Virus record (IMG/VR): IMGVR_UViG_2917587430_000001
Location: 89,228-113,599 of that record
Reading direction: 5' to 3' (one strand)
From: a virus
DNA length: 24,372 bases
The position numbers and the translations under genes are program-made. The notes under the pieces were generated by a model that was not told the origin of the DNA, did no database searches, and saw only the letters and a program-made list of their open reading frames with translations. Positions 1 through 17,725 of this stretch are shown piece after piece. The number at the start of each line of letters is the position of its first letter. The first letter of the stretch is position 1.

Positions 1-227
1 AACCAGAAAGAACTTGAAGGCCAATCTACGGTAGCAACATATCCATCAAAGATTATTGACCAATCAATTCTCTCACCACGAGACGCAGCACACCAAAGAG
101 GAATATGTTCTGGATGGGAGAATACCTCGCTCATGTGATAGCAAGGCTTGCCAAGAAGACGTTCAAGTGCAAATTTGAGTGACTTTGTTCCAGTTCGACC
201 GAGTCCAGCCCCTACTACTTTCAGCAT
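1..227 (-). CDS. Sulfotransferase-family (Sulfotransfer_4-like) P-loop protein, 5' part only; continues beyond window; gene cassette
   Basis: Not in ORF track. Manual translation from ATG at 227: MLKVVGAGLGRTGTKSLKFALERLLGKPCYHMSEVFSHPEHIPLW...DWSIIFDGYVATVDWPSSSFW. The GAGLGRTGTxSL, CYHM and VDWP motifs are characteristic of this family. Starts about 35 bp after an attC core site. Confidence 0.85.
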   Translation of the reverse strand, partial: MLKVVGAGLGRTGTKSLKFALERLLGKPCYHMSEVFSHPEHIPLWCAASRGERIDWSIIFDGYVATVDWPSSSFW

Positions 228-260
228 CAACAGAAATCCATCACAAAAAATTCTTTAGCA

Positions 261-346
261 GACTAACGTTTCCACTCACTGGATGCAGATTAACTTTGCA
301 ATCTAGACGAACAATCCTGTACGTTCCAATGCAGCGGTTGTTAGAC
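261..346 (-). mobile_element. attC site (slightly degenerate)
   Basis: Minus strand: GTCTAAC-AACC-GCTGCATTGGA...TCCAGTGAGT-GGAAAC-GTTAGTC; 86 bp imperfect palindrome between two co-oriented genes. Its R'' context AGCAGTCTAAC is complementary (1 mismatch) to the R' context of the upstream site at 1298-1308. Confidence 0.8.
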
Positions 347-377
347 TGCTCAACACAACACCACGAAGTAATCAAAC

Positions 378-557
378 TTAAAGCGGTTTTCCGCATGTAG
401 GACAGGAGTTAGAACGCTCCCCTGGTGCTGGTCCAGCGTAATATCCGTCGAAGTTAGCTGTTGTTTGTCTGTCGCAGATATAACGAGCTATTTCAACTTT
501 CTGTTTAGGCGTAAGCTGATTAAACCACGCTACGAAATTATCTAGAACTTGGCTCAT
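378..557 (-). CDS. 59-aa hypothetical protein with C-terminal CPTCG motif
   Basis: Not in ORF track. GAGGAG RBS 6 nt before ATG. MSQVLDNFVAWFNQLTPKQKVEIARYICDRQTTANFDGYYAGPAPGERSNSCPTCGKPL*. Fills the gap between the CxxCx(11)CxxC gene and the attC. Confidence 0.7.
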   Translation of the reverse strand: MSQVLDNFVAWFNQLTPKQKVEIARYICDRQTTANFDGYYAGPAPGERSNSCPTCGKPL

Positions 558-617
558 GTTTTGCTCCTCAATGCTTGTCTAGTTTTATGAGCACCCGGAT
601 GTATGCCTTTATAGCAC

Positions 618-1208
618 TCAATTAGTTCTTCGTTGGGCTGGAGTACCACCGCAAGCCTCACAGCTTCCCGGAGTAAATTGCCAAGGATCAGCTCTGCAAA
701 TAGGACAAGGAGTGGAAGTGGTGGGGCTAAACTGCTTAAGAGCATCTCTGTAAGCTTTCTGCCTATTCCCTTCTTTCACACCAAGCAATAAAGCTTCGTC
801 CTCAGCATCAACATCTTTAACACGCCTTAGAAACTGCTCTACAGCTTCACTAGTAGCAGTTTGGCTTTGCAAAAGTCGATCTGCCTCGTAAGCAGTATCT
901 GCATTGCGCCGCGACATAATTGCATGTTTAATCTCATCATCTTGCCATTTGTTGACGAGTTTTAAGATTGCTAGTACCAACAAAATTGCAGCTAGGACTT
1001 CACCCAAACTATCAATGAGATTTGCAAGTAATGTGCCTTTTGCTAGTAACCGAGGGGTGAGATAAAAAGCTGGCACTGCTATTGAGAGAAACTCAATAAA
1101 CCGATTTCTTTGTTGAAGATTACGAATTTGCCTTCTGTGCAGTTGAATGGCGACTAGTGCATCAAGCTTCTGCTGTCGGATCTTGTTTGCGTCTTCCTGG
1201 TTAAGCAT
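618..1208 (-). CDS. Mobilome CxxCx(11)CxxC protein (two hydrophobic helices, SLATT-like architecture, C-terminal zinc ribbon)
   Basis: Two hydrophobic segments (FIEFLSIAVPAFYL; LGEVLAAILLVLAILKLV) and CPIC-RADPWQFTPGS-CEAC with exactly 11-residue spacing. Confidence 0.75.
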   Translation of the reverse strand: MLNQEDANKIRQQKLDALVAIQLHRRQIRNLQQRNRFIEFLSIAVPAFYLTPRLLAKGTLLANLIDSLGEVLAAILLVLAILKLVNKWQDDEIKHAIMSRRNADTAYEADRLLQSQTATSEAVEQFLRRVKDVDAEDEALLLGVKEGNRQKAYRDALKQFSPTTSTPCPICRADPWQFTPGSCEACGGTPAQRRTN

Positions 1209-1301
1209 TCAACCTTCTAGCTGAGTAGCCTTACACTAACTTATAGAATACTGTCTTCTTATCAATATGCTTCCAAGAGCACCTTTGCAAGTAACTCAGC
1301 A

Positions 1302-1380
1302 GTCTACCGGTGCACTTGAGCGGCTGCAAACAACCTTGACCAAGATCTTCCGGCAGCCTGCTCCAAGCGAATTGTTAGAC
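1302..1380 (-). mobile_element. attC site with core triplet changed GTT>GGT
   Basis: Minus strand: GTCTAAC-AATTCG-CTTGGAGC-AGGCTGC...GCAGCC-GCTCAAG-TGCACC-GGTAGAC. The 8-nt L'' and 7-nt L' boxes pair with one extra base; 79 bp. Confidence 0.85.
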
Positions 1381-1429
1381 TGTTTTAGTTTCTATACCTC
1401 TGCTTAGAAACAACAGCATTGCAAATTGA

Positions 1430-2131
1430 TTACTCGTCATTTGCTGCAATACTCCGCCGTAACTTTAAGAATGTTTTATATTTAAGCCCGCACAACATCT
1501 TTAATCGAATTTCGTACATCAAATCTATCACCAACTTCTTAAATCTGTCATAGACTTTCTGATCAACCTTTTCCTCTGATGTTAAATCACCTCCATGAGC
1601 TACAGCATTGCGTAACCTTAGAAATAGCTCTAAGGATTCCTTTAAATTAGGCTTCGGATGTGTATAGTCTTTCCAATGTTCTGGAAACTTTTCAAGTGCA
1701 AAACTTTTGAGCAGTTTGTTTAAGACATTGAAGCCAACATTGCTCTCAGTATTAACAACTCTTGAAATAGGGCAGTTACTACTAGTGTGGAATACTCTGA
1801 GCGAGGCAAAAAACTTTACCTTCCTATTATCATTTCCGGGATATTCCTTAAACTGTTTGAAAGAGTTTTCCATATGGTGAATAACTATTTCATCGCAAAA
1901 ATCATGGAAATTTATACTGACTTTATTAAGTTCATCAATGTAGAGGTTGAAAGATTTTTGGATGAAGCTTTCCCATAGAGAATAAATCATCGATATTGAT
2001 TGAGTTGAGAAAATGTCTTGATGCTTTGAAGATAGAGAATATCTATTCGTAAAAATTGCCCTCTCAATTTCAAAAAGAACAGATATTCGCTCTTCAATAA
2101 TTTCTTGCAATGCCAAATCAAAATCATGCAT
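1430..2131 (-). CDS. HEPN domain protein (MAE_28990/MAE_18760-like), putative RNase toxin
   Basis: YSLWESFI motif, TESNV motif and HEPN RxxxxH motif (RNAVAH); immediately downstream of a DUF262 gene. Confidence 0.75.
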   Translation of the reverse strand: MHDFDLALQEIIEERISVLFEIERAIFTNRYSLSSKHQDIFSTQSISMIYSLWESFIQKSFNLYIDELNKVSINFHDFCDEIVIHHMENSFKQFKEYPGNDNRKVKFFASLRVFHTSSNCPISRVVNTESNVGFNVLNKLLKSFALEKFPEHWKDYTHPKPNLKESLELFLRLRNAVAHGGDLTSEEKVDQKVYDRFKKLVIDLMYEIRLKMLCGLKYKTFLKLRRSIAANDE

Positions 2132-2149
2132 AGCCGATTGCTAAGTTTA

Positions 2150-3313
2150 TTATTGAAAAATTTCATCTACTCTTCTAAGACGATTTCTAATCCGGCTTCT
2201 ACTGTTAGAAGCGCTTCCGGAGTATCTCTTGAAATCTTCATCACTTTTTAATTCTGTTATTTTTAATTTCAAAAGTTCAAGATCTCCAGTATACTTATCA
2301 ATATTTTGAGCAACTCCGATTAATATACCTTCAAAATAAGCTGGAACGAATAAGTTACTCTCGTTTCTAAATGTCTTGGCATCTCCTATCTGGTTAATTA
2401 ATTCTAAAACTCTCATAATGAGAGATTCATAAGCATCGTAGTCAAAATCAGCATTTTGAACAGTTGCCTCCATAAAGTTATTTAAAAATTTCTCCATATT
2501 TTCATTGATATTTTTAGCATTTCTATAGAAAGCAAAAAATCTAAGAACTAGTTCTTGATCATATAACTCATTAAGTCTGCGAGGACTTAATTGGGTAAGA
2601 CATCCGAAAACATCACTTTGACTAATTTTTAGCAAAAGCTCGTTAAACCTAGGATCTACCCCTCGATAAATTGCATTTCTTATTTCCTGCGGAGTTAGTT
2701 TTGATCCCCCAGAGTTGAGTCGTTTGAACAACTCATACTTCATAGAAGTACTACTTTCTCCTCTCAAAATTTCGACTCTACAAACAGCTCTTTTTAGATT
2801 TATTTTTAGATTTGTTGGAAGACTGTCAATGTTAAAACCTTGTAAACTTTCAACTAATCCTCCTTCTTGCAAAGTCCATTTATTTATGGTTTTTCCCTCT
2901 TCGGTTCCTTCCCCATCTTCCTCTACAATTTCTTCTTCCTCTTCGACTAATGAGCTAACATCCTCTTCCTGATTATCGATTTTCCACCCATCCCCTTTTA
3001 GTTCACCAAAGAAACTTATGAAAGTAGAAACACGTTGTAGTCCATCAACTAACTCCCATACACCGTTTCTATCTTCAGCTACAAATATAGGAGGAATCGG
3101 AATCGAGAGTAAAATAGATTCTATGAGTGCAGTTTTTTGTACTTCTGACCATCGAAACAATCTTTGATATTCTGGTCTAATTATTAATTCATCATTTTTG
3201 TATAGGTTGATCAACTCACCAAAAGAAATGTCGAGCCTATCTGACGAAAGTCTTCTTCTCTCATCTGAGACTGCTTTTTCGAGCAAGGCTACTTTTTCTT
3301 TAAGGTTTTCCAT
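2150..3313 (-). CDS. DUF262 (ParB/Srx-like, GmrS-type) domain protein
   Basis: Motifs PEYQRLFRW, LIESILLSIPIPPIF, VDGLQR, FKRLNSGG..LTPQEIRNA. First ATG at 3313 preferred over the non-ATG start at 3358. Confidence 0.85.
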   Translation of the reverse strand: MENLKEKVALLEKAVSDERRRLSSDRLDISFGELINLYKNDELIIRPEYQRLFRWSEVQKTALIESILLSIPIPPIFVAEDRNGVWELVDGLQRVSTFISFFGELKGDGWKIDNQEEDVSSLVEEEEEIVEEDGEGTEEGKTINKWTLQEGGLVESLQGFNIDSLPTNLKINLKRAVCRVEILRGESSTSMKYELFKRLNSGGSKLTPQEIRNAIYRGVDPRFNELLLKISQSDVFGCLTQLSPRRLNELYDQELVLRFFAFYRNAKNINENMEKFLNNFMEATVQNADFDYDAYESLIMRVLELINQIGDAKTFRNESNLFVPAYFEGILIGVAQNIDKYTGDLELLKLKITELKSDEDFKRYSGSASNSRSRIRNRLRRVDEIFQ

Positions 3314-3425
3314 ATTACTCAGGCTTAGTAAGCTTTTCCAAGTATAACGAGCTGGCAATAAAATGAATACTCAGATGTCTTCATTGATGACCGACCATGT
3401 AAAAGAAAGAACTTAGTGTCTAGCA

Positions 3426-3510
3426 GTCTAACAGCGAAGTTGAGCCGTGAACGCTACTTAGTTGCGTCATCAGGCTAACGGTGTTCATCAGCTCCAACGT
3501 CGAGTTAGGT
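3426..3510 (-). mobile_element. attC site (canonical architecture)
   Basis: Minus strand: ACCTAAC-TCGAC-GTTGGAGC-TGATGAAC...GTTCACG-GCTCAAC-TTCGCT-GTTAGAC = RYYYAAC, 5-nt spacer, 8-nt L'', stem, 7-nt L', 6-nt spacer, GTTRRRY; two extrahelical positions; 85 bp. Confidence 0.92.
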
Positions 3511-3620
3511 CCCCTTTTTTGGCAGCTATACGGCATACTTGCGAGATGATACCCAATTTTCAGTAACTAAACAGCAAGTTTGCAGGATGACTTCCTAGTT
3601 TCAGGGCGCTGTTTATCAAG

Positions 3621-3778
3621 TCTGATGGATAATCTTGAAGATTAGGAGAGTTATCCGTCAAACATGCAGGATAACTTCCTCAGTTCCGGTATCACCGAGC
3701 ATCTAACCTTGAATGGCACAACCTCCTTCCCCTCGCCCATTAGATCAGGTACGGCAGTCTATTTGACTCAAGCATTTC
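3621..3778 (+). repeat. Diverged direct repeat (copy 1) of intI upstream region and 5' coding end; copy 2 at 17569-17725
   Basis: Colinear shared blocks TCTGATGG, CTTGAAG, GTTATCYGTCAAACATGCAGGATA, CAGTTCCGGTA, ATGGCACAA, ATTAGATCAGGTAC, ACTCAAGCATTTC. Confidence 0.9.
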
Positions 3779-3877
3779 AGCTTGAAGATCAAGAAATCTT
3801 ACACCGGCTACATTCGCGATTTCATCCTGCTTCGTCACAAACGGCACCTTAAAGAAATGAGGACAGATGAAATTTAA
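3713..3877 (+). pseudogene. intI: Integron integrase N-terminal (SAM-like) fragment, in-frame stops, catalytic domain absent
   Basis: MAQPPSPRPLDQVRQSI*LKHFSLKIKKSYTGYIRDFILLRHKRHLKEMRTDEI* matches the IntI N-terminal pattern LLDQVRxxIRxKHxSxxTExxYxxxIxxFIxFHxKRHPxEMG. Divergent from the attC array as in canonical integrons. Confidence 0.85.
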
Positions 3878-4047
3878 GTCTACTGGGAACTAGCTAGAAG
3901 GTTTGAATACTTTTGAGGTTTAACATCAAGTTCATCTCATTAGGTAGTCGCTTCAACACATCAGCGAACGTAAAGTTCATCCAACCCAGCAGGAGGGCGA
4001 TCGCCCAACTTAAAGTTTGCTCAAGGCGAGATTGGAACAGTATATTT

Positions 4048-4061
4048 AGTACAAACGTTCT
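4048..4061 (+). promoter_or_regulatory. Putative cyanobacterial LexA (SOS) box
   Basis: AGTAC-AAAC-GTTCT, 12 bp upstream of lexA ATG; one mismatch to the cyanobacterial consensus RGTACNNNDGTWCB. Confidence 0.6.
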
Positions 4062-4073
4062 AACTAATCCGTT

Positions 4074-4712
4074 ATGCAAGCTCTTACTCGTGTTCAACAA
4101 CAGCTTTACGACTGGTTGGTTAGCTATTTTGAACAAAACCAATGCCCTCCAACGATTCGAGAAATGCAGGAGGCAATGGGGCTAAAATCTCCTGCTCCCA
4201 TCCAGAGCCGCTTAGACGCATTGGAATTGAAGGGATATATTGAGCGGTCTAGTTATGGTCGTTCTCGCAACATTCGGCTTGTACAAGAGCGGATGCCTGC
4301 ACCCAAAGGCATCCCTATTATGGGAGCGATCGCTGCTGGCGGGTTAGTTGAAACATTCGCTGATGGCGAAGTTGAATATGTTCCAGAAGCTTTTCTTGCA
4401 GCAAAAACGTCTAGCCATGAGATGTCAAAGCATTTTGCTGTTCGTGTTCGGGGGGATAGCATGATCGACGCTTCAATCACCTCAGGTGATGTAGTTTTTT
4501 TGAAAAAACCTGATGATCCAAAAGCTATTAAGAACGGCACGATTGTGGCGGCAAGGGTGGAAGGTCAAACAACGCTCAAATACTTGCAGCGTGTAGACGA
4601 GGAGACTATCAGACTTGAACCTGCAAACTCTAATTTTTTACCTATAGATGTCAACGCTGAAGAGATAAACATTCAGGGAGTATATGTTGGGAGTGTGCGA
4701 GGTTTAATTTAA
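4074..4712 (+). CDS. lexA: LexA-family repressor (cyanobacterial type)
   Basis: N-terminal PPTIREMQEAMGLKSPAPIQSRL wHTH typical of cyanobacterial LexA; Ala-Gly cleavage site (IAAG), catalytic Ser (GDSM) and Lys (TTLK), LEPAN motif. Confidence 0.88.
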   Translation: MQALTRVQQQLYDWLVSYFEQNQCPPTIREMQEAMGLKSPAPIQSRLDALELKGYIERSSYGRSRNIRLVQERMPAPKGIPIMGAIAAGGLVETFADGEVEYVPEAFLAAKTSSHEMSKHFAVRVRGDSMIDASITSGDVVFLKKPDDPKAIKNGTIVAARVEGQTTLKYLQRVDEETIRLEPANSNFLPIDVNAEEINIQGVYVGSVRGLI

Positions 4713-9805: not shown

Positions 9806-12800
9806 TCAGATTGATTTAGGAGAGATCAAATCTTGGAAGTATTCATTACTATGCAAGTCTAACCATGCTACATCCTGACGCGCCCAAATTACGGCTTGAC
9901 GCTTCAAGGATATAGACTGCTCTAAGTAATTCAAAGCAGCATCAATATTTCCGGTTACTGCTTCCAGACCTCCCAAACCATAAAGGGCTGTGCCACGAGA
10001 TTTTGTATAAAGCAAAGAGGTAAGGGTTGGTCGAACCGCTTCGATTTGAAGATAAGCATCAGTTACTCCTCGCAATCGAACAGTAGCAATAGCGATATTA
10101 TAAAGATCGCTAAAGGCATTAGGGTTTCGCTTAAGTGACTCTCTATAATTCTGAATTGCCTCAGAATAACGCCCAAGATAAGTAAGTACTAACCCTTGAT
10201 TTCCCCAGCAATCGCGTCCTGAAGACATTGCTGTATCAAAGTCAGTAAGAGCCTCGTCATATAATCTCATTAATCGATACGTATCAGCCCTATTTTCAAC
10301 AGCCCAAGCATCTTGTGGGTCAAGTTCAATAGCTCTGTCAAGGTCTTCTAGAGATTTCTCATACTGTTCTAACTCACGATAAGTTATGCCACGATGAGCA
10401 ATTGCCCAAGCATCTTGTGGGTCAAGTTCAATAGCTCTGTCAAGGTCTTCTAGAGATTTCTCATACTGTTCTAACTCACGATAGGTTATGCCGCGATGAG
10501 CAATTGCCCAAGCACCTTGTGGGTTAAGTTCAATAGCTCTGTCAAGGTCTTCTAGAGATTTCTCATACTGTTCTAACTCACGATAGGTTATGCCGCGATG
10601 AGCAATTGCTGGAATATAAGATGAGTCTGAATCAATTGCCTCAGAAAAATCTACTATGGCATAATCCTTATATCCTGCTTTGCTCATTGCTCGAGCACGG
10701 CAATAGCGTACCACTGCTCTTTCTAATTGTGGTATTGGTGCTTCTGTAATTAACCGAGGAATTTCAAGGCGAGGATACACCAATTGATGTATCCTAACTA
10801 ACGAGAGCCAACATTCAGGGCAAGCTGGCTCTGCCGATAATGATTTAAGAAACGAATCAATAGCCTTTTCAGGCAGTCCCATACTTTGGAATGTTAAACC
10901 TATTTCTTTTCGCCCCACATGCTCAAAATCTGGCTCCGATGCGATCGCCTTCTGAAGATCAGTTAAACTTGCTTCATAACGCTCCATCAAACGATAGGTT
11001 ATACCGCGCTGCGCAATTGCCCGACTATATTTTGGGTCGAGTTCGATAGCTTTATCAAAGTCTTTAAGCGCCTCTTCATAACGCTCCATTAAACGATGGA
11101 TTAGACCGCGCTGCGCAATTGCCCAACTATATTTTGGGTCGAGTTTGATAGCTTTATCAAAGTCTTTAAGCGCCTCTTCATAACGCTCCATTAAACGATG
11201 GATTAGACCGCGCTGCGCAATTGCCCAACTATATTTTGGGTCGAGTTCGATAACTTTATTAAAGTCTTCGAGCGCCTCTCTATAACGGTCTATATCTTGA
11301 TAAGTTAGACCGCGTTGCGCAATCTTCCAACTAGATTTTGGGTCGAGTTCGATAGCTTTATCAAAGTCTTTGAGCGCCTCCTCATAACGCTCCATGTCTT
11401 GATAAGTTTCACCACGACTAGCAATTGCCCAAGCATAAGCTGGATCTAATTCAATGGCTCTATCAAAATCTATTAACGCCTCTTCATAATATTCCATCAG
11501 ACGATACACTTCGCCTCGCCAAGCCAAACCAATAGGTTTCCACTGTGCCTCAATCGTAGAATGTCCAATAAGAGCAGTAAACATTTCAGCAGCAACTTCG
11601 TAGCGTTCCTCCTCATACGCCTTTAATCCTTCAATCAGTTGCTCACTCCAACGCAAAATTTCGGTTGCATCTCTATCTTGGGCTGCCCGCATCATTGTTT
11701 CCGCCCAACGTAACGCAAACTTGCGTTGATTCTTTAGAGCAGCTAGAAACTCGTTTAAAGCAATTGCAAGATTCTTTTGTGGAGCTTGGCATAGTCGATG
11801 ATATAACACATTCAATGTATAGCTTTGCCAAGCTAAATCTCTTCGTTGCACTTCTTCGCTCAACTGCAGTTCGTTGCGAAGTCGCTCAAAGTAATCTGCT
11901 AGTTTTCCATGTAATTCAGCCCAGCTCTGAGGATAAGCGAGCCGTTTATGACGTAACATTTGAGATCTGACGATTTCGTGATACATCCAGCCATCAGTTC
12001 TTTCCTCAACAAAAGGCATTTCCTTCAACCAATCAAATAATTCATCTGCTTCATTCCATTCTCTAAGTTGGGCTAAAACGTCTCTGTTTAAGTACTGTGG
12101 AATAGCAGCATCTAAAGCCACCTGTCGTCGTTTTGAGTCATCTACCCAGCTCAAGAAACGTTCAACTGCTGTTCCGCTAGGATCACCAACCTCATCAGGC
12201 GTGTGTGGAATCTCTGTAGCCAATGTGGCAACTAGCAGAGGTAACCGTCCAGAAAGCCGTAAAATAACATCAACGACCGTTTTACTAGTGATTCCTTTTT
12301 GAGCAAGAAACTGTTGGGCTTCCTCTTCCGTAAATGGCTCTAGAGGCATTCGCGTTATTAATCCTTCATAGGATGCCCAACGATTTTTGTCTAGTTCGTG
12401 TCGTCCGGCAATCACGAACAATACATTCAAAGGTATTTCACCATACCGACCTTCTATAACGTCCTGGAGCCAGTTATCTAAAAAATTTCCTGTCCGCTCG
12501 TAAGTATCAAAAAACAAAATTATTCCAGACTTCTCAGCAATCTTCTTAATTTCTTCTAAGAATAGAGGCGTTAAAACTTCAATTGGTTCTTGAACTAAAC
12601 GAACTTCATCTTTATTAGTTAACTTCTTCGCGACGTAAGATGCCCATTCTCCTGCCTGTGCTGCTGCCACATCCTCATCTACCAAATCAAAGACAGCTCC
12701 TCCAACTGGAATTCGTCGCGCCAATTTTACGCTAGCTTTAACAGCCGTTTTACTAACAAAAGCAGAAAAGCCTTGTGGAGCTTCTGCATCAGTCTCTAAT

Positions 12801-13159
12801 TCTTGGCGTTTCTGACGAAAAACTTTGTAGCGTTCGCTAAATTGCCCCAGTTTATAGTGCTTCTCCAGATGTTCTCCAAATCTTCCCAGGACTTCTGGCA
12901 CACTTTTTTCTGCCTCGTCAATATGAGCGGTGATTACTCCTCTCTCCTCTGCAATCTTACGAAACTGCTTGAGTAAAGTACTTTTACCAATTCCTCCTTG
13001 CCCTGAAGCATTAAATATGAACCAACGCCTGTAGTCTTCCAAGGGCAGTTCCAAGTTCTGTCGAAACTGAGCAACCTGCTCTGTCCGTCCCACAAAGCCA
13101 GACTGTTGGCGCTGTTTGAGAACGTCTTGGATACTTCTGACTCTATTTAATGAATTCAT
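9806..13159 (-). CDS. P-loop NTPase (STAND/AAA-like) with C-terminal TPR array
   Basis: FVGR motif, Walker A GQGGIGKST, Walker B LFFDTYE, IAGR sensor, LEPF, SGRLPL (GxP) motifs; >10 34-aa TPR units. Confidence 0.88.
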   Translation of the reverse strand: MNSLNRVRSIQDVLKQRQQSGFVGRTEQVAQFRQNLELPLEDYRRWFIFNASGQGGIGKSTLLKQFRKIAEERGVITAHIDEAEKSVPEVLGRFGEHLEKHYKLGQFSERYKVFRQKRQELETDAEAPQGFSAFVSKTAVKASVKLARRIPVGGAVFDLVDEDVAAAQAGEWASYVAKKLTNKDEVRLVQEPIEVLTPLFLEEIKKIAEKSGIILFFDTYERTGNFLDNWLQDVIEGRYGEIPLNVLFVIAGRHELDKNRWASYEGLITRMPLEPFTEEEAQQFLAQKGITSKTVVDVILRLSGRLPLLVATLATEIPHTPDEVGDPSGTAVERFLSWVDDSKRRQVALDAAIPQYLNRDVLAQLREWNEADELFDWLKEMPFVEERTDGWMYHEIVRSQMLRHKRLAYPQSWAELHGKLADYFERLRNELQLSEEVQRRDLAWQSYTLNVLYHRLCQAPQKNLAIALNEFLAALKNQRKFALRWAETMMRAAQDRDATEILRWSEQLIEGLKAYEEERYEVAAEMFTALIGHSTIEAQWKPIGLAWRGEVYRLMEYYEEALIDFDRAIELDPAYAWAIASRGETYQDMERYEEALKDFDKAIELDPKSSWKIAQRGLTYQDIDRYREALEDFNKVIELDPKYSWAIAQRGLIHRLMERYEEALKDFDKAIKLDPKYSWAIAQRGLIHRLMERYEEALKDFDKAIELDPKYSRAIAQRGITYRLMERYEASLTDLQKAIASEPDFEHVGRKEIGLTFQSMGLPEKAIDSFLKSLSAEPACPECWLSLVRIHQLVYPRLEIPRLITEAPIPQLERAVVRYCRARAMSKAGYKDYAIVDFSEAIDSDSSYIPAIAHRGITYRELEQYEKSLEDLDRAIELNPQGAWAIAHRGITYRELEQYEKSLEDLDRAIELDPQDAWAIAHRGITYRELEQYEKSLEDLDRAIELDPQDAWAVENRADTYRLMRLYDEALTDFDTAMSSGRDCWGNQGLVLTYLGRYSEAIQNYRESLKRNPNAFSDLYNIAIATVRLRGVTDAYLQIEAVRPTLTSLLYTKSRGTALYGLGGLEAVTGNIDAALNYLEQSISLKRQAVIWARQDVAWLDLHSNEYFQDLISPKSI
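10302..10609 (-). repeat. Three near-identical 102-bp tandem repeats (TPR units)
   Basis: Unit starts at 10302, 10404, 10506; encodes AIAHRGITYRELEQYEKSLEDLDRAIELDPQDAW. Confidence 0.95.
10972..11520 (-). repeat. About five 102-bp tandem repeats (second TPR unit type)
   Basis: Units in register at 10972, 11074, 11176, 11278, 11380; encode AIAQRGLIHRLMERYEEALKDFDKAIELDPKYSW. Confidence 0.9.
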
Positions 13160-13373: not shown

Positions 13374-16300
13374 CTAGAGTCGCACCTTAATTTGGGAGAT
13401 ATCAACCTCCTCTGATTTGATTGCTCGAATATATCTGAACTTCCAGACTTCAGTATTTTCAATTATTCTAAAACCGGCAGTTTCAAGACCTCTAACAAAC
13501 CCTTGAAGATCTTTAATACGGGACGTTACTTCATAAATCCAGAGTTGCCCATCAAGTTTTAGGGTGCGGGATGCTTCTCGAATGTAATCAGCAATGTTCA
13601 AACCCATCAGTGACAAATTGAACATAGCAACGTCCAGACAGCCATCCTCCAAAGGTACACGAACCATGTCACACTCAATGACTGAGTCATTGATAGCAAT
13701 GAAATCAAAGCTATGAACCGTATGCTTGCCGACAAGAGCTTTAGCTATCAATGCTTCCCCACAACCCAAATCAGCGACAACTAAATCAGAACGCTTTTGA
13801 AGCCACTTAATAGCCTCCTCATAGGGAATAACTGTCCAAGTTTTTCGAGCGTCTTGATAAAGTGTATGGTATTGCATCCACTCTTCCGGATTGCCTTGTA
13901 AGCGTTTATAGGTAGTGTGACTGTAGCTATTACTCCAACGGGCATTCATCCGGCTAAAGTCACCGTATTGAACATTACGGCGTCGAACATCTGATGGATC
14001 AATATCTGGAAGTGGGACAAAGATTTTAGGACGAATAGCTAGTTTCTGTTCACCTGTCTTCAACCTTTCTAACCATTTACGCAGATCTCGAAATGCTTGG
14101 GATTCAGTCCTTAGCTGACCTTCAGGCATTACACCATCAACCGCAGCATCGGCAACCGTTTGCTTGTTTTGTAGTCGCGCTAATCGCCCCTCATCCCAAC
14201 TCCATCGTTCTCCATCATCTAAGCCGTAAGTTACAGGCATGAGGATTGTGAGAGTGTCATGAACTTGCCCCTGACGATTTAATCGTCCTTCTAGTTGCTC
14301 TAGTTCGGCACTTGTCCAAGGTGGAATATTTAAAATCAAGCGATCGCAGACTCGTTGAAAGCCATCAACACCGGTAGCCATAGCACTACTGGCAATCAGA
14401 ATGTCAGTAGAACCGTCAATGAAATTGTTACGCCCACTTTTATCACCTCCCATGTGAAAACCAACAGTCCATCCGTCTGCCTCGATTGCCTCTTTTAGCT
14501 GATCGACGATGCCCTCAACATAGTGGGTATAAACAATAGTTTTGGGACGGAGTTCCTTGAGAATGGTTGGAATTCTAGCACGGGTAAGGATCTGCTCCAT
14601 CTTCAAAATAGAGGTGCCTTCTTCGCGAATTTTATCAACTAAATGAGTGCAGTCAATTGGAAGCCTAACTCTATTGATTCTAATTTTGGGTTTGACTCTA
14701 GAACGAATTCCCAGAGTCACAAACGCCTGATGCAATCGCATACAGTTATTAAGGGTGGCTTTCTCATTTAATTCAGGTCGTTCTACACCTGTCACTAATT
14801 CAACCAAGCTTTTACCTTCTTTTAGGTTGTTAATAACGGGAGTTGCACTCATTCCAAGCACATGAAGATTAGGATTCTTCTCTGCTGCGTTAGTAATCAA
14901 GGCAAGAACCATCTGCCGTCGTTTAGACGGATCATCACCACGTTGCTTGCAACGATGAATCTCATCCACAATGATGAAGTCAATTTGATATCGCTCTAGC
15001 AGGTGCCTAATGTGAGCAGGCGTTGAAGGTTGTTGGAACATCTCGTGATTTAAGAGGATGTAATGATGCCCCTCTTCAATATCTATCCAGTGAGGATTAA
15101 AGTTTTTGATTGTAACTCGGCTATCTGGAAAAACATGTTTAATTTCTCCATGCCAGTTTGGCACCGTATCTAATGGACAGATGATGATAGTGAGATGGGC
15201 ATCAATGATGCGACTGCTAAGAATGCCACCAATCGTTTTACCTGTTCCTGTCAATGAGAGGTTTAACATTCGCTGCTGGTTACGTAAATTCACCGCAGCT
15301 AATTTTTGCATTAAGTTTGGAGGTGTGACTTTGCCATCAACTCGGAATGCCCAACCTGATGGAATTGCCATATCGTGCGCTTGGTTATATTCGTCAAGAA
15401 ATTGATCTCTTACTTGACGACCATAGCCATCATCCGTAAAAGCTTCAATTGCTTCAACGGCAGATTCATCCTCAAAGACTTCTGCCCAGATCCGATTGCG
15501 TCTAGAAGCAATAAAAAAATCAATTGCTTCTTGATCAGCTGAAGCAACAATTTCGCTGCTTAAAAATTCTAGACTTTTTCTAACCTTGACTTTTGGTAAC
15601 TCATTGAGCTCATTAAGTTGCTCTTGAGAAGCACCAGTTGTTTCAAAGGTTTCAGATTCCTCAGATATGCTAAGTGATGGAATAGTATCGACAATCTGTA
15701 GCTCGGTATCAGCTTTAATAACATCAACTGAATCAGTTTCAGGTTCAGACGTTTTGACTCCCTTACCTTGAATTACATCTCGAAGTTTTTGACCTGCCAG
15801 TTTACCCTTAATAATCTCTTTAACAATCTTAAGTCCTTCAAGGTTTGTCGTATCTAAAACACCCGATTGCTCAAATATTTTATATAATTCAGCCTGAGTC
15901 AGGTTTGGAATATGAACTTCTAAACTAGCAACGAACTGGCGAATAGCCTCTATAGTCCAACCCGAACCACAACGAGCACATCCACTATTGCCTTGACTCC
16001 AAGAAGCTCTAGTAATGCTAGTTATTCTAGCTTTCCATTCATATCCATCAATAGGACATTTAAACCAAGCGTCTTGGCTTGAACCTCTAGTTAATTTATC
16101 AGGATTTAAACCAAGACTAGTATTTTTGCCATAATCCCAATACTGAGCTACGTAATTAGGGTAAAGTCCAATCAAGGATGTAGTTTCAGTAGCGATTAAA
16201 CCTCTGCAAGCTGGACAACCGCTGTTACCCTTTTGCCAAGCTGATCTGGCAACTGAAGTAATAGATGCGACCCACTCATGCCCATCAACAGGGCACTTGA

Positions 16301-17429
16301 AGAAAGCTTCTTTACTTGATCCGCTAGTCAGTTTCGTTGGATCGAGTTCTAGTTCATTATTAGCTTTGTATAACCAATACTTAGCGACTTCATCAGGAAA
16401 TTCAATTGCGATTGGCTCTCTACGCTGCCATTCACCACGCTTACGTTCAGCAGTTCCATTGCAAACCCGACAGCCAGCATTGCCTTTTGACCATTGCTGA
16501 TTGATCGTTGCAGTAATACTTGCTTGCCACTCATTGCCGTCGTAAGTGCATTTGAACCAAACCTTCTTGTTGCTTGCAAGAGTCAGTTTTTCTGGATCTA
16601 AGTTAATTTCACTATTTTTTCCATAATCCCAGTATTGTTTGACAAGTTCTGGATATCCCTCCATCAAAGTAGATTGTTTCTCAGGCTTCTTCTTTTTCCC
16701 TGCACACACTGGGCATCCACTTGTACCATACCTATCCCAACTGTTTGTGATATCATTTGACTTCTTCTTCCAAGAATGACCATCAACCGGACATTTAAGC
16801 CAGAAAAACGGTGTGGAACTCCCAGCAGAAACTTCTCCAGGATTGAGATCTCCATTTCTCTCGTAATCCCATAATTCTGCAACTCGTTCTGGATAAAGGG
16901 CGGCTAAGCTTCTTGAATAAAGTTCTTGCTTGGCACTTTCTTTTTTTTCTTCTTCAGCTGCCGCCTCTGCTTCTTCACACTCCTTTAAATACTCATGAAA
17001 TGCAGGATTTGCATTAAGGATTTGTCTAACTCTTTCTCTACTAATTCCATACTGATTACCTATTTGCTGCCTATTAAATCCTTGTTTGTAAAGTTCCAGA
17101 AGCTGATTGCTTTTCTCAAGTTTTGCTTGTCTTAATTTGTTTGGTTTAGGTAACTCTTTTGTTCCTTCACCATCTAATTCAAGCAAACGGCTCGATTGGT
17201 CATTCTTTTGTTCTTGCCAAGATTCGCAAACAGCCTGGCCTAAGCTTGTAAGAAAAACTCGATTATCTTCTAGTTTAATAAGTCCCCTATCTTGAAGATT
17301 CAGCACTGTGTCTTTGACAGAACTAAACTGTTCAACTGGTTGAGGAGATAGATATAGTGATCTAAGAATGAGCGTCTGGTTCTTGCCAAATCCTTTTGTA
17401 GCTTCCCGGAGCTTGTCTGCATTATCCAT
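13374..17429 (-). CDS. Multidomain protein: HTH + 4x DUF4379-like zinc ribbons + SF2 helicase/ATPase + Rrp8-like (Methyltransf_8) SAM methyltransferase
   Basis: HTH QQIGNQYGISRERVRQI; four YP...WDY.KN...P..L..GS...W.KC..DG..W...GCxxC repeats; helicase motifs TGTGKT, DEIH, SATP, TGVDG, QLEGRLNRQGQ; C-terminal VVADLGCGEA, HSFDFIA, CDM..VPLED..LDVA.F.LSLMG.N..DY.REA.R.LK..G.L.I.EV.SR. Confidence 0.82.
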   Translation of the reverse strand: MDNADKLREATKGFGKNQTLILRSLYLSPQPVEQFSSVKDTVLNLQDRGLIKLEDNRVFLTSLGQAVCESWQEQKNDQSSRLLELDGEGTKELPKPNKLRQAKLEKSNQLLELYKQGFNRQQIGNQYGISRERVRQILNANPAFHEYLKECEEAEAAAEEEKKESAKQELYSRSLAALYPERVAELWDYERNGDLNPGEVSAGSSTPFFWLKCPVDGHSWKKKSNDITNSWDRYGTSGCPVCAGKKKKPEKQSTLMEGYPELVKQYWDYGKNSEINLDPEKLTLASNKKVWFKCTYDGNEWQASITATINQQWSKGNAGCRVCNGTAERKRGEWQRREPIAIEFPDEVAKYWLYKANNELELDPTKLTSGSSKEAFFKCPVDGHEWVASITSVARSAWQKGNSGCPACRGLIATETTSLIGLYPNYVAQYWDYGKNTSLGLNPDKLTRGSSQDAWFKCPIDGYEWKARITSITRASWSQGNSGCARCGSGWTIEAIRQFVASLEVHIPNLTQAELYKIFEQSGVLDTTNLEGLKIVKEIIKGKLAGQKLRDVIQGKGVKTSEPETDSVDVIKADTELQIVDTIPSLSISEESETFETTGASQEQLNELNELPKVKVRKSLEFLSSEIVASADQEAIDFFIASRRNRIWAEVFEDESAVEAIEAFTDDGYGRQVRDQFLDEYNQAHDMAIPSGWAFRVDGKVTPPNLMQKLAAVNLRNQQRMLNLSLTGTGKTIGGILSSRIIDAHLTIIICPLDTVPNWHGEIKHVFPDSRVTIKNFNPHWIDIEEGHHYILLNHEMFQQPSTPAHIRHLLERYQIDFIIVDEIHRCKQRGDDPSKRRQMVLALITNAAEKNPNLHVLGMSATPVINNLKEGKSLVELVTGVERPELNEKATLNNCMRLHQAFVTLGIRSRVKPKIRINRVRLPIDCTHLVDKIREEGTSILKMEQILTRARIPTILKELRPKTIVYTHYVEGIVDQLKEAIEADGWTVGFHMGGDKSGRNNFIDGSTDILIASSAMATGVDGFQRVCDRLILNIPPWTSAELEQLEGRLNRQGQVHDTLTILMPVTYGLDDGERWSWDEGRLARLQNKQTVADAAVDGVMPEGQLRTESQAFRDLRKWLERLKTGEQKLAIRPKIFVPLPDIDPSDVRRRNVQYGDFSRMNARWSNSYSHTTYKRLQGNPEEWMQYHTLYQDARKTWTVIPYEEAIKWLQKRSDLVVADLGCGEALIAKALVGKHTVHSFDFIAINDSVIECDMVRVPLEDGCLDVAMFNLSLMGLNIADYIREASRTLKLDGQLWIYEVTSRIKDLQGFVRGLETAGFRIIENTEVWKFRYIRAIKSEEVDISQIKVRL

Positions 17430-17568
17430 AGCTGAACCTGAACAATTAGAGTTGCCTATGTAATAGTTTTAGGCTTCACACATCAGTTTGCCCTTCTACT
17501 ACTCAAAATTCACCAAACCTTAAAGCTTTCGGGCATTTCAGGCAACCGATTTTACATTTCTTGCCAAT

Positions 17569-17725
17569 TCTGATGGTTAACCTTGAAGGTCAGGGATGTT
17601 ATCTGTCAAACATGCAGGATAGCTCCCCCAGTTCCGGTACTACCCGGCGTTTACCCTTGATGGCACAATACCCTTCCCCTTGCCTATTAGATCAGGTACA
17701 GCAATCTATTCAACTCAAGCATTTC
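17569..17725 (+). pseudogene. intI: Second integron-integrase 5' remnant with upstream region
   Basis: Homologous to 3621-3778. Encodes (MQDSSPSSGTTRRLPL)MAQYPSPCLLDQVQQSIQLKHF, then switches to unrelated sequence. Confidence 0.75.

What the first reader, a model, noticed from the sequence alone, without database searches (positions are those of the whole stretch)
1..3877. Cyanobacterial integron cassette array with dead integrase, abutting a prophage and loaded with defence-like cassettes
Seen: three attC sites (261-346, 1302-1380, 3426-3510) separate co-oriented genes. Each cassette's R'' flank is complementary to the R' flank of the site upstream (CAGTCTAAC/GTTAGACTG; AGCAGTCTAAC/GGTAGACTGCT), as expected for cassettes integrated from circles. 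A divergent intI 5' pseudogene (not in the ORF track) sits at 3713-3877. Known: integron cassettes often encode toxin-antitoxin and anti-phage functions, and cyanobacterial integrons are sparsely characterised. Inference: a phage-associated, integrase-less array fixed as a defence/accessory island; it continues left of the window.
Basis: partly seen in the sequence, partly recalled or inferred. Interest (0 to 1): 0.85.

Follow-up and report, generated by a model that had tools for sequence, protein, structure and literature searches.

The report
Decapitated integron inside a cyanobacterial prophage
A phage-like cyanobacterial sequence carries a real gene-cassette array whose recombinase gene and docking site are both broken, and sister copies with the same break hold different cassettes, so the host's enzyme likely kept swapping cassettes there, including a predicted anti-phage pair.

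Summary
A model built from other cyanobacterial attC sites hits exactly 261-346, 1302-1380 and 3426-3510 (51, 61, 30 bits). 3713-3883 is codons 1-57 of an integron integrase (70% identical to a full 322-aa IntI), with two stops.

Corrections:
- The array lies inside a 113.6-kb phage-like record, between a tape-measure gene and lexA.
- It ends one gene and one worn attC left of the window.
- Only one of three cassettes is clearly defence-like (DUF262+HEPN, PD-T4-2-like).
- The attI crossover is deleted, and one attC core is mutated.

New: the record holds four related intI stubs and 19 attC hits. Three stubs share one breakpoint but share no cassette. Cassettes therefore likely turned over after the integrase died, probably through host IntI in trans (~60%); homologous capture of host arrays is the main rival.

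Phage-borne integrase-less arrays (Qi 2023) and defence cassettes (Kieffer preprint) are known. I found no cyanobacterial phage case in my searches. This scan noted dispersed arrays and integrase-less attI heads on this record, and similar prophage arrays in other genomes. Verdict: new variant of a known kind; interest 0.5.

The parts
1..230 (-). 5' part of cassette 3 gene, a sulfotransferase (whole gene 198 aa). It ends left of the window at G000:C1:88861 and is followed by a degenerate fourth attC at C1:88767-88849 and the tape-measure stop at C1:88660.
   Evidence: Pfam Sulfotransfer_4 E 3.9e-53; fourth attC 13.5 bits; sequence; related cassettes in other flanks
261..346 (-). attC closing cassette 2; core triplets intact
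   Evidence: R1 51.4 bits
378..557 (-). 59-aa ORF of cassette 2, no family, C-terminal CxxC
   Evidence: ORF; no Pfam, NCBIfam, PADLOC or PHROG hit; Atlas best score 0.87, a lead only
618..1208 (-). Mobilome CxxCx(11)CxxC protein (TIGR04402) of cassette 2; weak link to SLATT/2TM effectors
   Evidence: NCBIfam 127 bits, cut-off 70; Atlas 0.95-0.97; PADLOC 2TM effector only E 0.003
1302..1380 (-). attC closing cassette 1; crossover triplet mutated (bottom strand ACC for AAC, position 1307), so likely a poor substrate
   Evidence: R1 61.0 bits with the mismatch marked; identical in independent contig
1430..2131 (-). HEPN protein (RiboL-PSP / MAE_28990 type, RNAVAH motif), predicted RNase effector of cassette 1
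   Evidence: Pfam PF18735 E 3.8e-19, PF18737 E 2.8e-18; motif read
2150..3313 (-). DUF262 (GmrSD N-terminal) protein, predicted sensor/NTPase of cassette 1; PD-T4-2 A-like
   Evidence: Pfam PF03235 E 3.6e-27; PADLOC NsnA E 1.4e-59, PD-T4-2_A E 1.8e-52; 83-91% identical relatives across cyanobacteria; pair conserved in G223
3426..3510 (-). First attC; its cassette body is lost and its R'' box is joined directly to the attI platform
   Evidence: R1 29.7 bits; platform alignment; sibling site with a body at G000:C1:66985 and in contigs of X1 and X2
3511..3712 (.). Cyanobacterial intI-attI platform with repeated TTATCC..GGATAA palindromes, lacking its first 25-32 bases including the attI crossover
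   Evidence: nhmmer profile of 15 relatives, E 1.1e-39, match begins at profile position 26; part identical in X1
3713..3886 (+). intI 5' stub, codons 1-58 of about 322, two in-frame stops
3887..4004 (.). Non-intI tail of about 120 bases shared by stubs A, B and C, ending at a HIP1 octamer (3997-4004)
   Evidence: 86-92% identity among the three copies; HIP1 positions; seen with other flanks in X2 and X5 contigs
4074..4712 (+). Phage-borne lexA, the right-hand border of the slot; 92% identical to the lexA beside sister stub A
   Evidence: TIGR00498 173.5 bits; identity
17563..17725 (+). Fourth, shorter copy (D) of the platform plus intI codons 1-22, divergent from the 1351-aa helicase/methyltransferase gene; no attC near it

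Best explanation
This is a real integron cassette array inside a cyanobacterial prophage-like element, with its integrase cut to a 58-codon stub and its attI crossover deleted, and it was likely filled and reshuffled by a host integrase acting in trans before the head was locked. Shown: attC sites, stub, missing attI core, position between tape-measure gene and lexA, three sister stubs of one clade, no intact IntI on the record, and no cassette shared among the A, B and C arrays. Inferred history: (1) An ancestral integron head was captured by the phage. (2) One deletion removed intI from codon 58 onward, and the stub was joined at HIP1 to phage DNA. (3) The head was copied along with phage modules. 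(4) Each copy then gained or lost whole cassettes with clean junctions, which after step 2 would need IntI from elsewhere, most simply the host chromosome. (5) Separate deletions later removed the attI core (copies B, C, D) or the platform (copy A) and froze the heads. Today this copy cannot take new cassettes at attI. Its two intact attC sites (3426 and 261) could still let a host IntI excise cassettes 1+2 as one 3,165-base circle (predicted). The likely payoff is moron-type: the DUF262+HEPN pair is predicted to work as a sensor plus RNase abortive-infection system that protects the lysogen from other phages.
For: attC model hits at the exact coordinates. The stub matches IntI best. The platform lacks the crossover. 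Four stubs form one side of a branch, 99/96 support. Stubs A, B and C share the break and a 120-base tail at 86-92%. Self-comparison finds no homology among their cassettes, yet attC sites flank them. In copy A the cassette start and its R'' flank are complementary over 10 of 10 bases next to a retained AAC|TAT crossover. No full IntI on the record. Heads with a broken intI are common in these hosts: of 29 genome loci, 5 intact, 22 broken, 2 cut by contig ends. Three genomes hold both an intact and a broken copy (L013/L030, L015/L024, L031/L032). At least 12 of 401 sampled genomes of the phylum have a stop-free full-length IntI at over 50% identity (listed rows). The array is foreign-looking: 39% GC and 0 HIP1 in 3,971 bases, against 47% and 147 in the record. 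CALIN cassettes serving an integrase elsewhere is proposed in PMC4889954.
Against: The host genome is not held, so a donor IntI is not shown. The host-like MAG G005 has 40 attC hits but no IntI over the family cut-off. No contig joint skipping a cassette was seen in 4 runs of low-depth contigs. No close relative of this phage was found to show the same slot with other cassettes, so the turnover argument rests on paralogues within one record. Four terminase-related virus records carry 1 attC in all and no platform in their fetched loci, so this is not a family-wide trait. No sigma-70-like promoter faces the cassettes. The record is linear, has duplicated modules, and no portal was recognised; it may be a decayed prophage cluster. 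PADLOC gave no PD-T4-2 B hit for the HEPN gene, and the one close homologous pair examined (G223) has no attC nearby.
Confidence: 0.6

Rival explanations
1. Homologous capture. The stub and platform served only as homology arms, so whole ready-made arrays were swapped in from chromosomal integrons by general recombination, with a second crossover at an attC or by illegitimate joining. No IntI ever acted on the phage.
For: Up to 370 bases of platform plus intI homology are available. The tail after the break is more conserved (86-92%) than the intI part (83-85%), as expected if the intI side was exchanged. Last sites in arrays A and C end in non-canonical R' boxes. Qi et al. raise off-target and illegitimate recombination for phage CALINs.
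Against: The four stubs are a clade including their upstream bases, so donors would all have to be near-identical intI alleles. The far end next to the tape-measure gene needs a second event each time.
Confidence: 0.2
2. One long ancestral array was duplicated with the phage modules and then whittled down by deletions. The locus has been passive baggage since the integrase died.
For: Every head shows a different secondary deletion. One attC core is mutated and terminal sites are worn. Integrase loss freezing arrays is described for Xanthomonas (abstract).
Against: No cassette is shared among A, B and C, which needs fully complementary losses from at least 8 cassettes. Internal junctions are clean cassette junctions, and clean loss itself needs IntI. 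All cassette ORFs in the window are intact while the stub has two stops.
Confidence: 0.12
3. The record is a misassembly, or a chromosomal island of prophage debris, so the link between array and phage is accidental.
For: The record is linear with two tape-measure, two lexA and two small-terminase-like genes. No single independent contig spans the locus. Dispersed small arrays are normal in host-like chromosomes.
Against: Independent soil runs hold near-identical pieces across several joints: tape-measure end (X2, 1 difference), the 1302 attC and platform-to-stub (X1, 0 differences), and the B-type tail joint (X1). The same tape-measure / cassette / stub / lexA order occurs twice. Capsid, scaffold, terminase, tail tube and integrase genes are present.
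Confidence: 0.08

Closest known systems
Phage-borne CALINs and integrons of Qi et al. 2023 (PMC9892861), especially Shewanella prophage M16-3 (complete integron plus a CALIN with its own attI)
   Same: Co-oriented attC-bounded cassettes inside phage modules, no working integrase beside the array, an attI-type head away from an intact intI.
   Different: Cyanobacterial host type (no 'cyano' term in the held supplement). No intact intI anywhere on the record. Four related intI stubs and 17-19 attC sites on one record. Sister heads with one shared break carry different cassettes.
Chromosomal integrons with inactivated intI (Xanthomonas; bioRxiv 10.1101/2025.06.18.660453, abstract) and CALINs (Cury 2016, PMC4889954)
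   Same: A broken intI beside a retained array; stabilised cassette content.
   Different: Here the head is multiplied within a phage-like element. The remnant is the 5' end, which the Cury pseudogene search (C-terminal and catalytic profiles, over 50% coverage) would not count.
Cyanobacterial integrons of Leptolyngbyaceae, Nodosilineaceae and kin (loci L013-L041)
   Same: Same IntI clade (70% aa), same ~235-base platform, same 85-89-base attC type; broken heads are common.
   Different: 15 of the 16 relatives checked keep the attI crossover, and this copy has lost it. None of the 29 loci shows phage genes of this record nearby.
PD-T4-2 anti-phage system (DUF262 + HEPN PF18735, as tabulated in PMC10952713); anti-phage integron cassettes (BRiCs, bioRxiv 10.1101/2024.07.02.601719, abstract)
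   Same: Two-gene DUF262 + PF18735 layout; PADLOC PD-T4-2_A hit; defence genes carried as an integron cassette.
   Different: The HEPN gene hits no PD-T4-2 B model. The DUF262 scores slightly higher to Menshen NsnA, but the partners differ. Activity is untested, and the carrier is itself a phage.

Membership tests
Complete integron | Intact intI with catalytic domain | tested here: not met
   Only codons 1-58, two stops; no full IntI on the 113.6-kb record
Complete integron | attI recombination site between intI and first cassette | tested here: not met
   Platform present, but the first 25-32 bases with the AAC|TAT crossover are missing
Complete integron | Cassette promoter Pc | tested here: inconclusive
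   No sigma-70 consensus on the cassette strand in 3300-4100; 1 hit on the other strand against 1.2 expected. The cyanobacterial Pc is not defined.
CALIN | Two or more co-oriented attC sites within 4 kb | tested here: met
   Three sites at 30-61 bits plus one weak, same strand, 0.7-2.1 kb apart
CALIN | No neighbouring functional intI | tested here: met
CALIN | Call by IntegronFinder's own attC model | not testable with these tools
   That model is not held here and Rfam gave no relevant hit; a home-built model was used
attC site | R''/R' and L''/L' inverted repeats with extrahelical bases on a bottom-strand hairpin | tested here: met
   Model alignments; folds
attC site | Invariant AAC/GTT crossover triplets | tested here: inconclusive
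   Met at 261-346 and 3426-3510; not met at 1302-1380 (ACC)
attC site | Recombined by IntI | not testable with these tools
   Needs an attC x attI assay
Integron integrase (IntI) relic | N-terminus closer to IntI than to Xer or phage integrases | tested here: met
   TIGR02249 E 1.2e-6 and NF011946 were the only hits; 70% identity to full IntI
PD-T4-2 | DUF262 gene followed by PF18735 HEPN gene | tested here: met
   composition from the table in PMC10952713
PD-T4-2 | Both genes hit the system's own profiles | tested here: not met
   A hit at E 1.8e-52; no B hit at E up to 5
PD-T4-2 | Anti-phage activity | not testable with these tools
   Needs plaque assays
Menshen | DUF262 gene with OLD-type nuclease partner | tested here: not met
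   NsnA hit, but the neighbour is HEPN and no OLD/TOPRIM gene lies in the cassette
Temperate tailed phage | Capsid, scaffold, terminase, tail tube, tape measure, integrase, lysin | tested here: met
   PHROG and Pfam hits
Temperate tailed phage | Complete, inducible genome (portal, ends, virions) | tested here: inconclusive
   No portal among the 39 proteins scanned; record linear with duplicated modules

The most novel reading that the evidence does not exclude
A temperate cyanophage lineage has domesticated integron heads as reusable cargo docks. It keeps integrase-less attI platforms at module borders, lets the host's IntI load defence cassettes into them, and locks useful loads by deleting the attI core. 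The phage would then be a cassette shuttle between cyanobacteria, with about 19 attC sites in 114 kb.
Probability: 0.25. Interest if true: 0.8.

Novelty: new variant of a known kind. Interest (0 to 1): 0.5.

Why it matters
If true, it is a natural footprint of integron cassettes moving in and out of an array after its own integrase was lost, a route proposed for CALINs in PMC4889954 that I did not find demonstrated for phages in my searches. It would show cyanobacterial prophages recruiting anti-phage genes through the host integron system. As a by-product, the comparison defines a candidate attI crossover and platform for a poorly studied cyanobacterial IntI clade, which makes attI x attC assays and cassette mining for new defence systems directly testable. 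The ingredients taken singly (phage CALINs, broken intI, defence cassettes) are known, which caps the score.

Tried and rejected
- Rfam: no relevant family.
- My own heuristic attC scans were too loose: 40 cassette-strand against 57 opposite-strand hits in relatives; the first version missed the 261 site. They were used only to pick 12 training sites by eye.
- Stub kept as a functional N-terminal protein: rejected. Copy C has two stops, B a frameshift, A lacks codons 1-18 and D stops at codon 22.
- Stub kept as a Pc promoter module: no consensus promoter found, left open.
- Protein-database search with the 46-aa stub found nothing; plasmid blastn found nothing.
- Search for close relatives of the phage: viral scans with lexA (3 distant loci), stub (0), tape-measure end (0), tail motif (0) and TIGR04402 protein (0); metagenome scan with lexA (8 distant loci); 401 genomes with lexA (best 57%) and with the head DNA (3 weak hits). 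None shows the same slot.
- G005 contig C55, rich in attC, shows no structural genes of this phage and no platform in the 60 kb fetched.
- DUF262 has no PDB sequence match. The close G223 pair has no attC nearby.
- No RNA holder listed, so expression is untested. No excision joint was seen in low-depth contigs, which is not evidence of absence.
- The open frame on the minus strand of the tail in all three copies was not pursued; it has no plausible start.
- IntegronFinder could not be run.
Full report
SETTING. The window is the right end (C1:89228-113599) of G000, a linear 113,599-base virus record. The record has capsid, scaffold, terminase, tail-tube, two tape-measure, XerC-like integrase and amidase genes and 147 HIP1 octamers. 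HIP1 abundance as a cyanobacterial mark is recalled knowledge. Modules are duplicated: tape measure (78-85%), lexA (92%), a small-terminase-like gene and early genes.

OBSERVATION. To avoid circularity I fetched 29 cyanobacterial genome loci with the stub alignment. From them I picked 12 clean attC sites by eye out of 40 heuristic hits and built model R1. The structure has two-sided changes at 12 of 19 pairs, beyond all 500 shuffles and all slid controls. R1 finds 15 further sites in those loci (27 hits). In the window it hits 1302-1380, 261-346 and 3426-3510 at 61.0, 51.4 and 29.7 bits, with nothing else above 11.6 bits. The frame at 3713 is IntI: TIGR02249 is the best model, and residues 1-57 are 70% identical to the 322-aa IntI of L013, with two stops. 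Across the record the signature is clearer: the upstream neighbour beats the site's own flank in 9 of 14 neighbour pairs, ties in 2 and loses in 3.

ANATOMY, read along the cassette (minus) strand. Platform (3712-3511); first attC with no body; cassette 1, DUF262 + HEPN; attC with a mutated crossover triplet; cassette 2, TIGR04402 protein + 59-aa ORF; attC; cassette 3, sulfotransferase; a worn attC (13.5 bits); then 106 bases to the tape-measure stop. The array is 39% GC with no HIP1, against about 50% GC in both flanks. Relatives show a conserved ~235-base spacer that starts with a crossover AAC|TAT, to whose left the sequence varies. It was found by pattern in 15 of 16 loci that I chose from the 29 because they had the upstream DNA. 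The window matches this profile from position 26 on (E 1e-39), so the crossover and whatever body the first cassette had are deleted. A sibling of that first attC with its own body occurs elsewhere on the record and in two independent runs. The head is therefore dead twice over. That IntI cuts within the AAC triplet of the bottom strand is recalled; on that basis the 1302 site is likely impaired.

SISTER LOCI. The record has four intI stubs: A (C1:15969), B (80313), C (this one) and D (window 17563-17725). They form one side of a branch at 99/96 among 17 rows. A, B and C break at the same codon and share a 120-base non-intI tail ending at HIP1 (86-92%). A and C both lie between a tape-measure gene and lexA. 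A holds one cassette, a PDC-S59-like ATPase, whose start is complementary to its R'' flank over 10 of 10 bases beside a retained AAC|TAT. B heads three ORFs and 3-4 attC sites. Self-blast finds no homology among the cassettes of A, B and C. In all, R1 gives 19 distinct sites on the record, 17 above 20 bits (26 rows less 7 overlaps). Since the break is older than the split of the copies, their different cassette contents arose after IntI was lost. That step is an inference, and it is the most interesting point.

HOSTS. Of the 29 loci, 5 have an intact IntI, 22 are broken and 2 are cut by contig ends. Three genomes have both an intact and a broken copy. Among 401 sampled genomes of the phylum, at least 12 show a stop-free full-length match above 50% identity, and fragments are frequent (listed rows). 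One host-like MAG has 40 attC hits and no IntI over the family cut-off. Integrase-less heads are thus ordinary in these cyanobacteria, and donors in trans are available in some genomes but not all. Four terminase-related virus records carry one attC in total and no stub or platform in the fetched loci. No close relative of this phage was found.

INDEPENDENT DATA. Ten DNA runs hold parts of the stretch, none half of it, and no RNA holder is listed. Short contigs from soil runs match the tape-measure end, the mutated attC and the platform-to-stub joint with 0-1 differences. They also show related sulfotransferase cassettes leaving the alignment at the attC boundaries. No contig spans the locus and no excision joint was seen. 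One depth-3 contig shows the tail with a different left flank at the break, with a short shared motif, a weak hint of microhomology deletion.

CARGO. DUF262 hits PADLOC NsnA and PD-T4-2_A. Its partner is a PF18735/PF18737 HEPN with an RNAVAH motif (the R-x4-H RNase motif is recalled). A review table lists DUF262 and PF18735 as PD-T4-2 domains (passages). No B-model hit was found, so it works like PD-T4-2 but membership is unproven. The best 120 relatives are 83-100% identical (first row is the protein itself) and include Synechocystis, Anabaena, Nostoc and Microcystis entries. The one genomic pair examined lacks an attC. The other two cassettes have no firm defence link.

MECHANISM AND RIVALS. 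Best (0.6): captured head, single truncation, duplication, cassette turnover by host IntI in trans, then locking by loss of the attI core, with cargo kept as morons. Rivals: homologous capture of whole arrays (0.2), passive erosion of one long array (0.12), misassembly or an accidental island (0.08).

LITERATURE. PMC9892861 (main text parts 1-4 of 7, i.e. the body; one supplement searched for five terms) reports 3 complete integrons, 1 In0 and 17 CALINs in 10,705 phage genomes, with 5 of 6 tested attC sites recombined by IntI1; no cyanobacterial term occurs in the held supplement, and its Dryad files were not seen. PMC4889954 (passages) defines CALINs, finds intI pseudogenes near 15 of 279, and proposes use by integrases elsewhere. 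PMC9024848 (passages) has no mention of cyanobacteria. Two preprints were seen as abstracts only. Searches returned no paper describing a cyanophage integron or duplicated intI stubs in a phage, judged from the listings; the library lacks most subscription journals. Earlier notes of this scan describe dispersed arrays and integrase-less attI heads on this same record, and borrowed-integrase arrays in other prophages.

VERDICT. Observation confirmed, interpretation partly supported. New variant of a known kind. Interest 0.5; novel case 0.25 likely, worth 0.8 if true.

Noticed in passing
window 17563-17725: Fourth intI stub (codons 1-22) with half a platform, cut off by a ~130-155-base repeat also present at G000:C1:2788 and 53210; it faces away from the 1351-aa helicase/methyltransferase gene and has no attC.
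   Followed up: partly
window 3511-3712; L013-L036 upstream of intI: The platform contains four repeated TTATCC...GGATAA palindromic units conserved across genera. Their binding protein (IntI accessory sites or a regulator) is unexplained; internal deletions between the units occur in several loci.
   Followed up: partly
window 4074-4712 and G000:C1:16275-16913: The phage carries two full LexA genes above the TIGR00498 cut-off (one scored), at most 57% identical to host LexA; a near-match to the recalled cyanobacterial LexA box lies just upstream (about 4048-4061).
   Followed up: partly
window 1239-1306: The 68-base leader of cassette 2 is matched by one contig at depth 180-376 in three soil runs, with unrelated flanks, suggesting an abundant element sharing this cassette start.
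   Followed up: no
G000:C1:42537-44962, 58375-63894, 66985-75613: Further cassette arrays in both orientations; some are headed by a second, stub-free platform type whose crossover resembles that upstream of Microcystis intI fragments (L039-L041). Cargo includes TIR, caspase-like, Mrr and GUN4 genes.
   Followed up: partly
G000:C1:66906-67069: An attC closely similar to the window's first attC, with a short body joined to phage DNA at a HIP1 site; possibly a gene-less cassette family that often heads arrays (L022 also has a first cassette too short for a gene).
   Followed up: partly
window 3887-4004: The tail shared by three stubs reads as an open 36-codon frame on the minus strand in all three, likely the 3' end of an unidentified gene; an X5 contig holds it in another context.
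   Followed up: partly
window 9806-13159 and 13374-17429: Large TPR/AAA protein and zinc-finger/SF2 helicase/methyltransferase fusion, both defence-like cargo without attC sites.
   Followed up: no
L112:10074-10131 (G001:C1:40073-40130): A single short 58-base attC (50 bits) in a terminase-related provirus.
   Followed up: partly
G005, contig C55 35-63 kb and others: A cyanobacterial MAG with 40 attC hits in many small arrays and only broken intI copies.
   Followed up: partly
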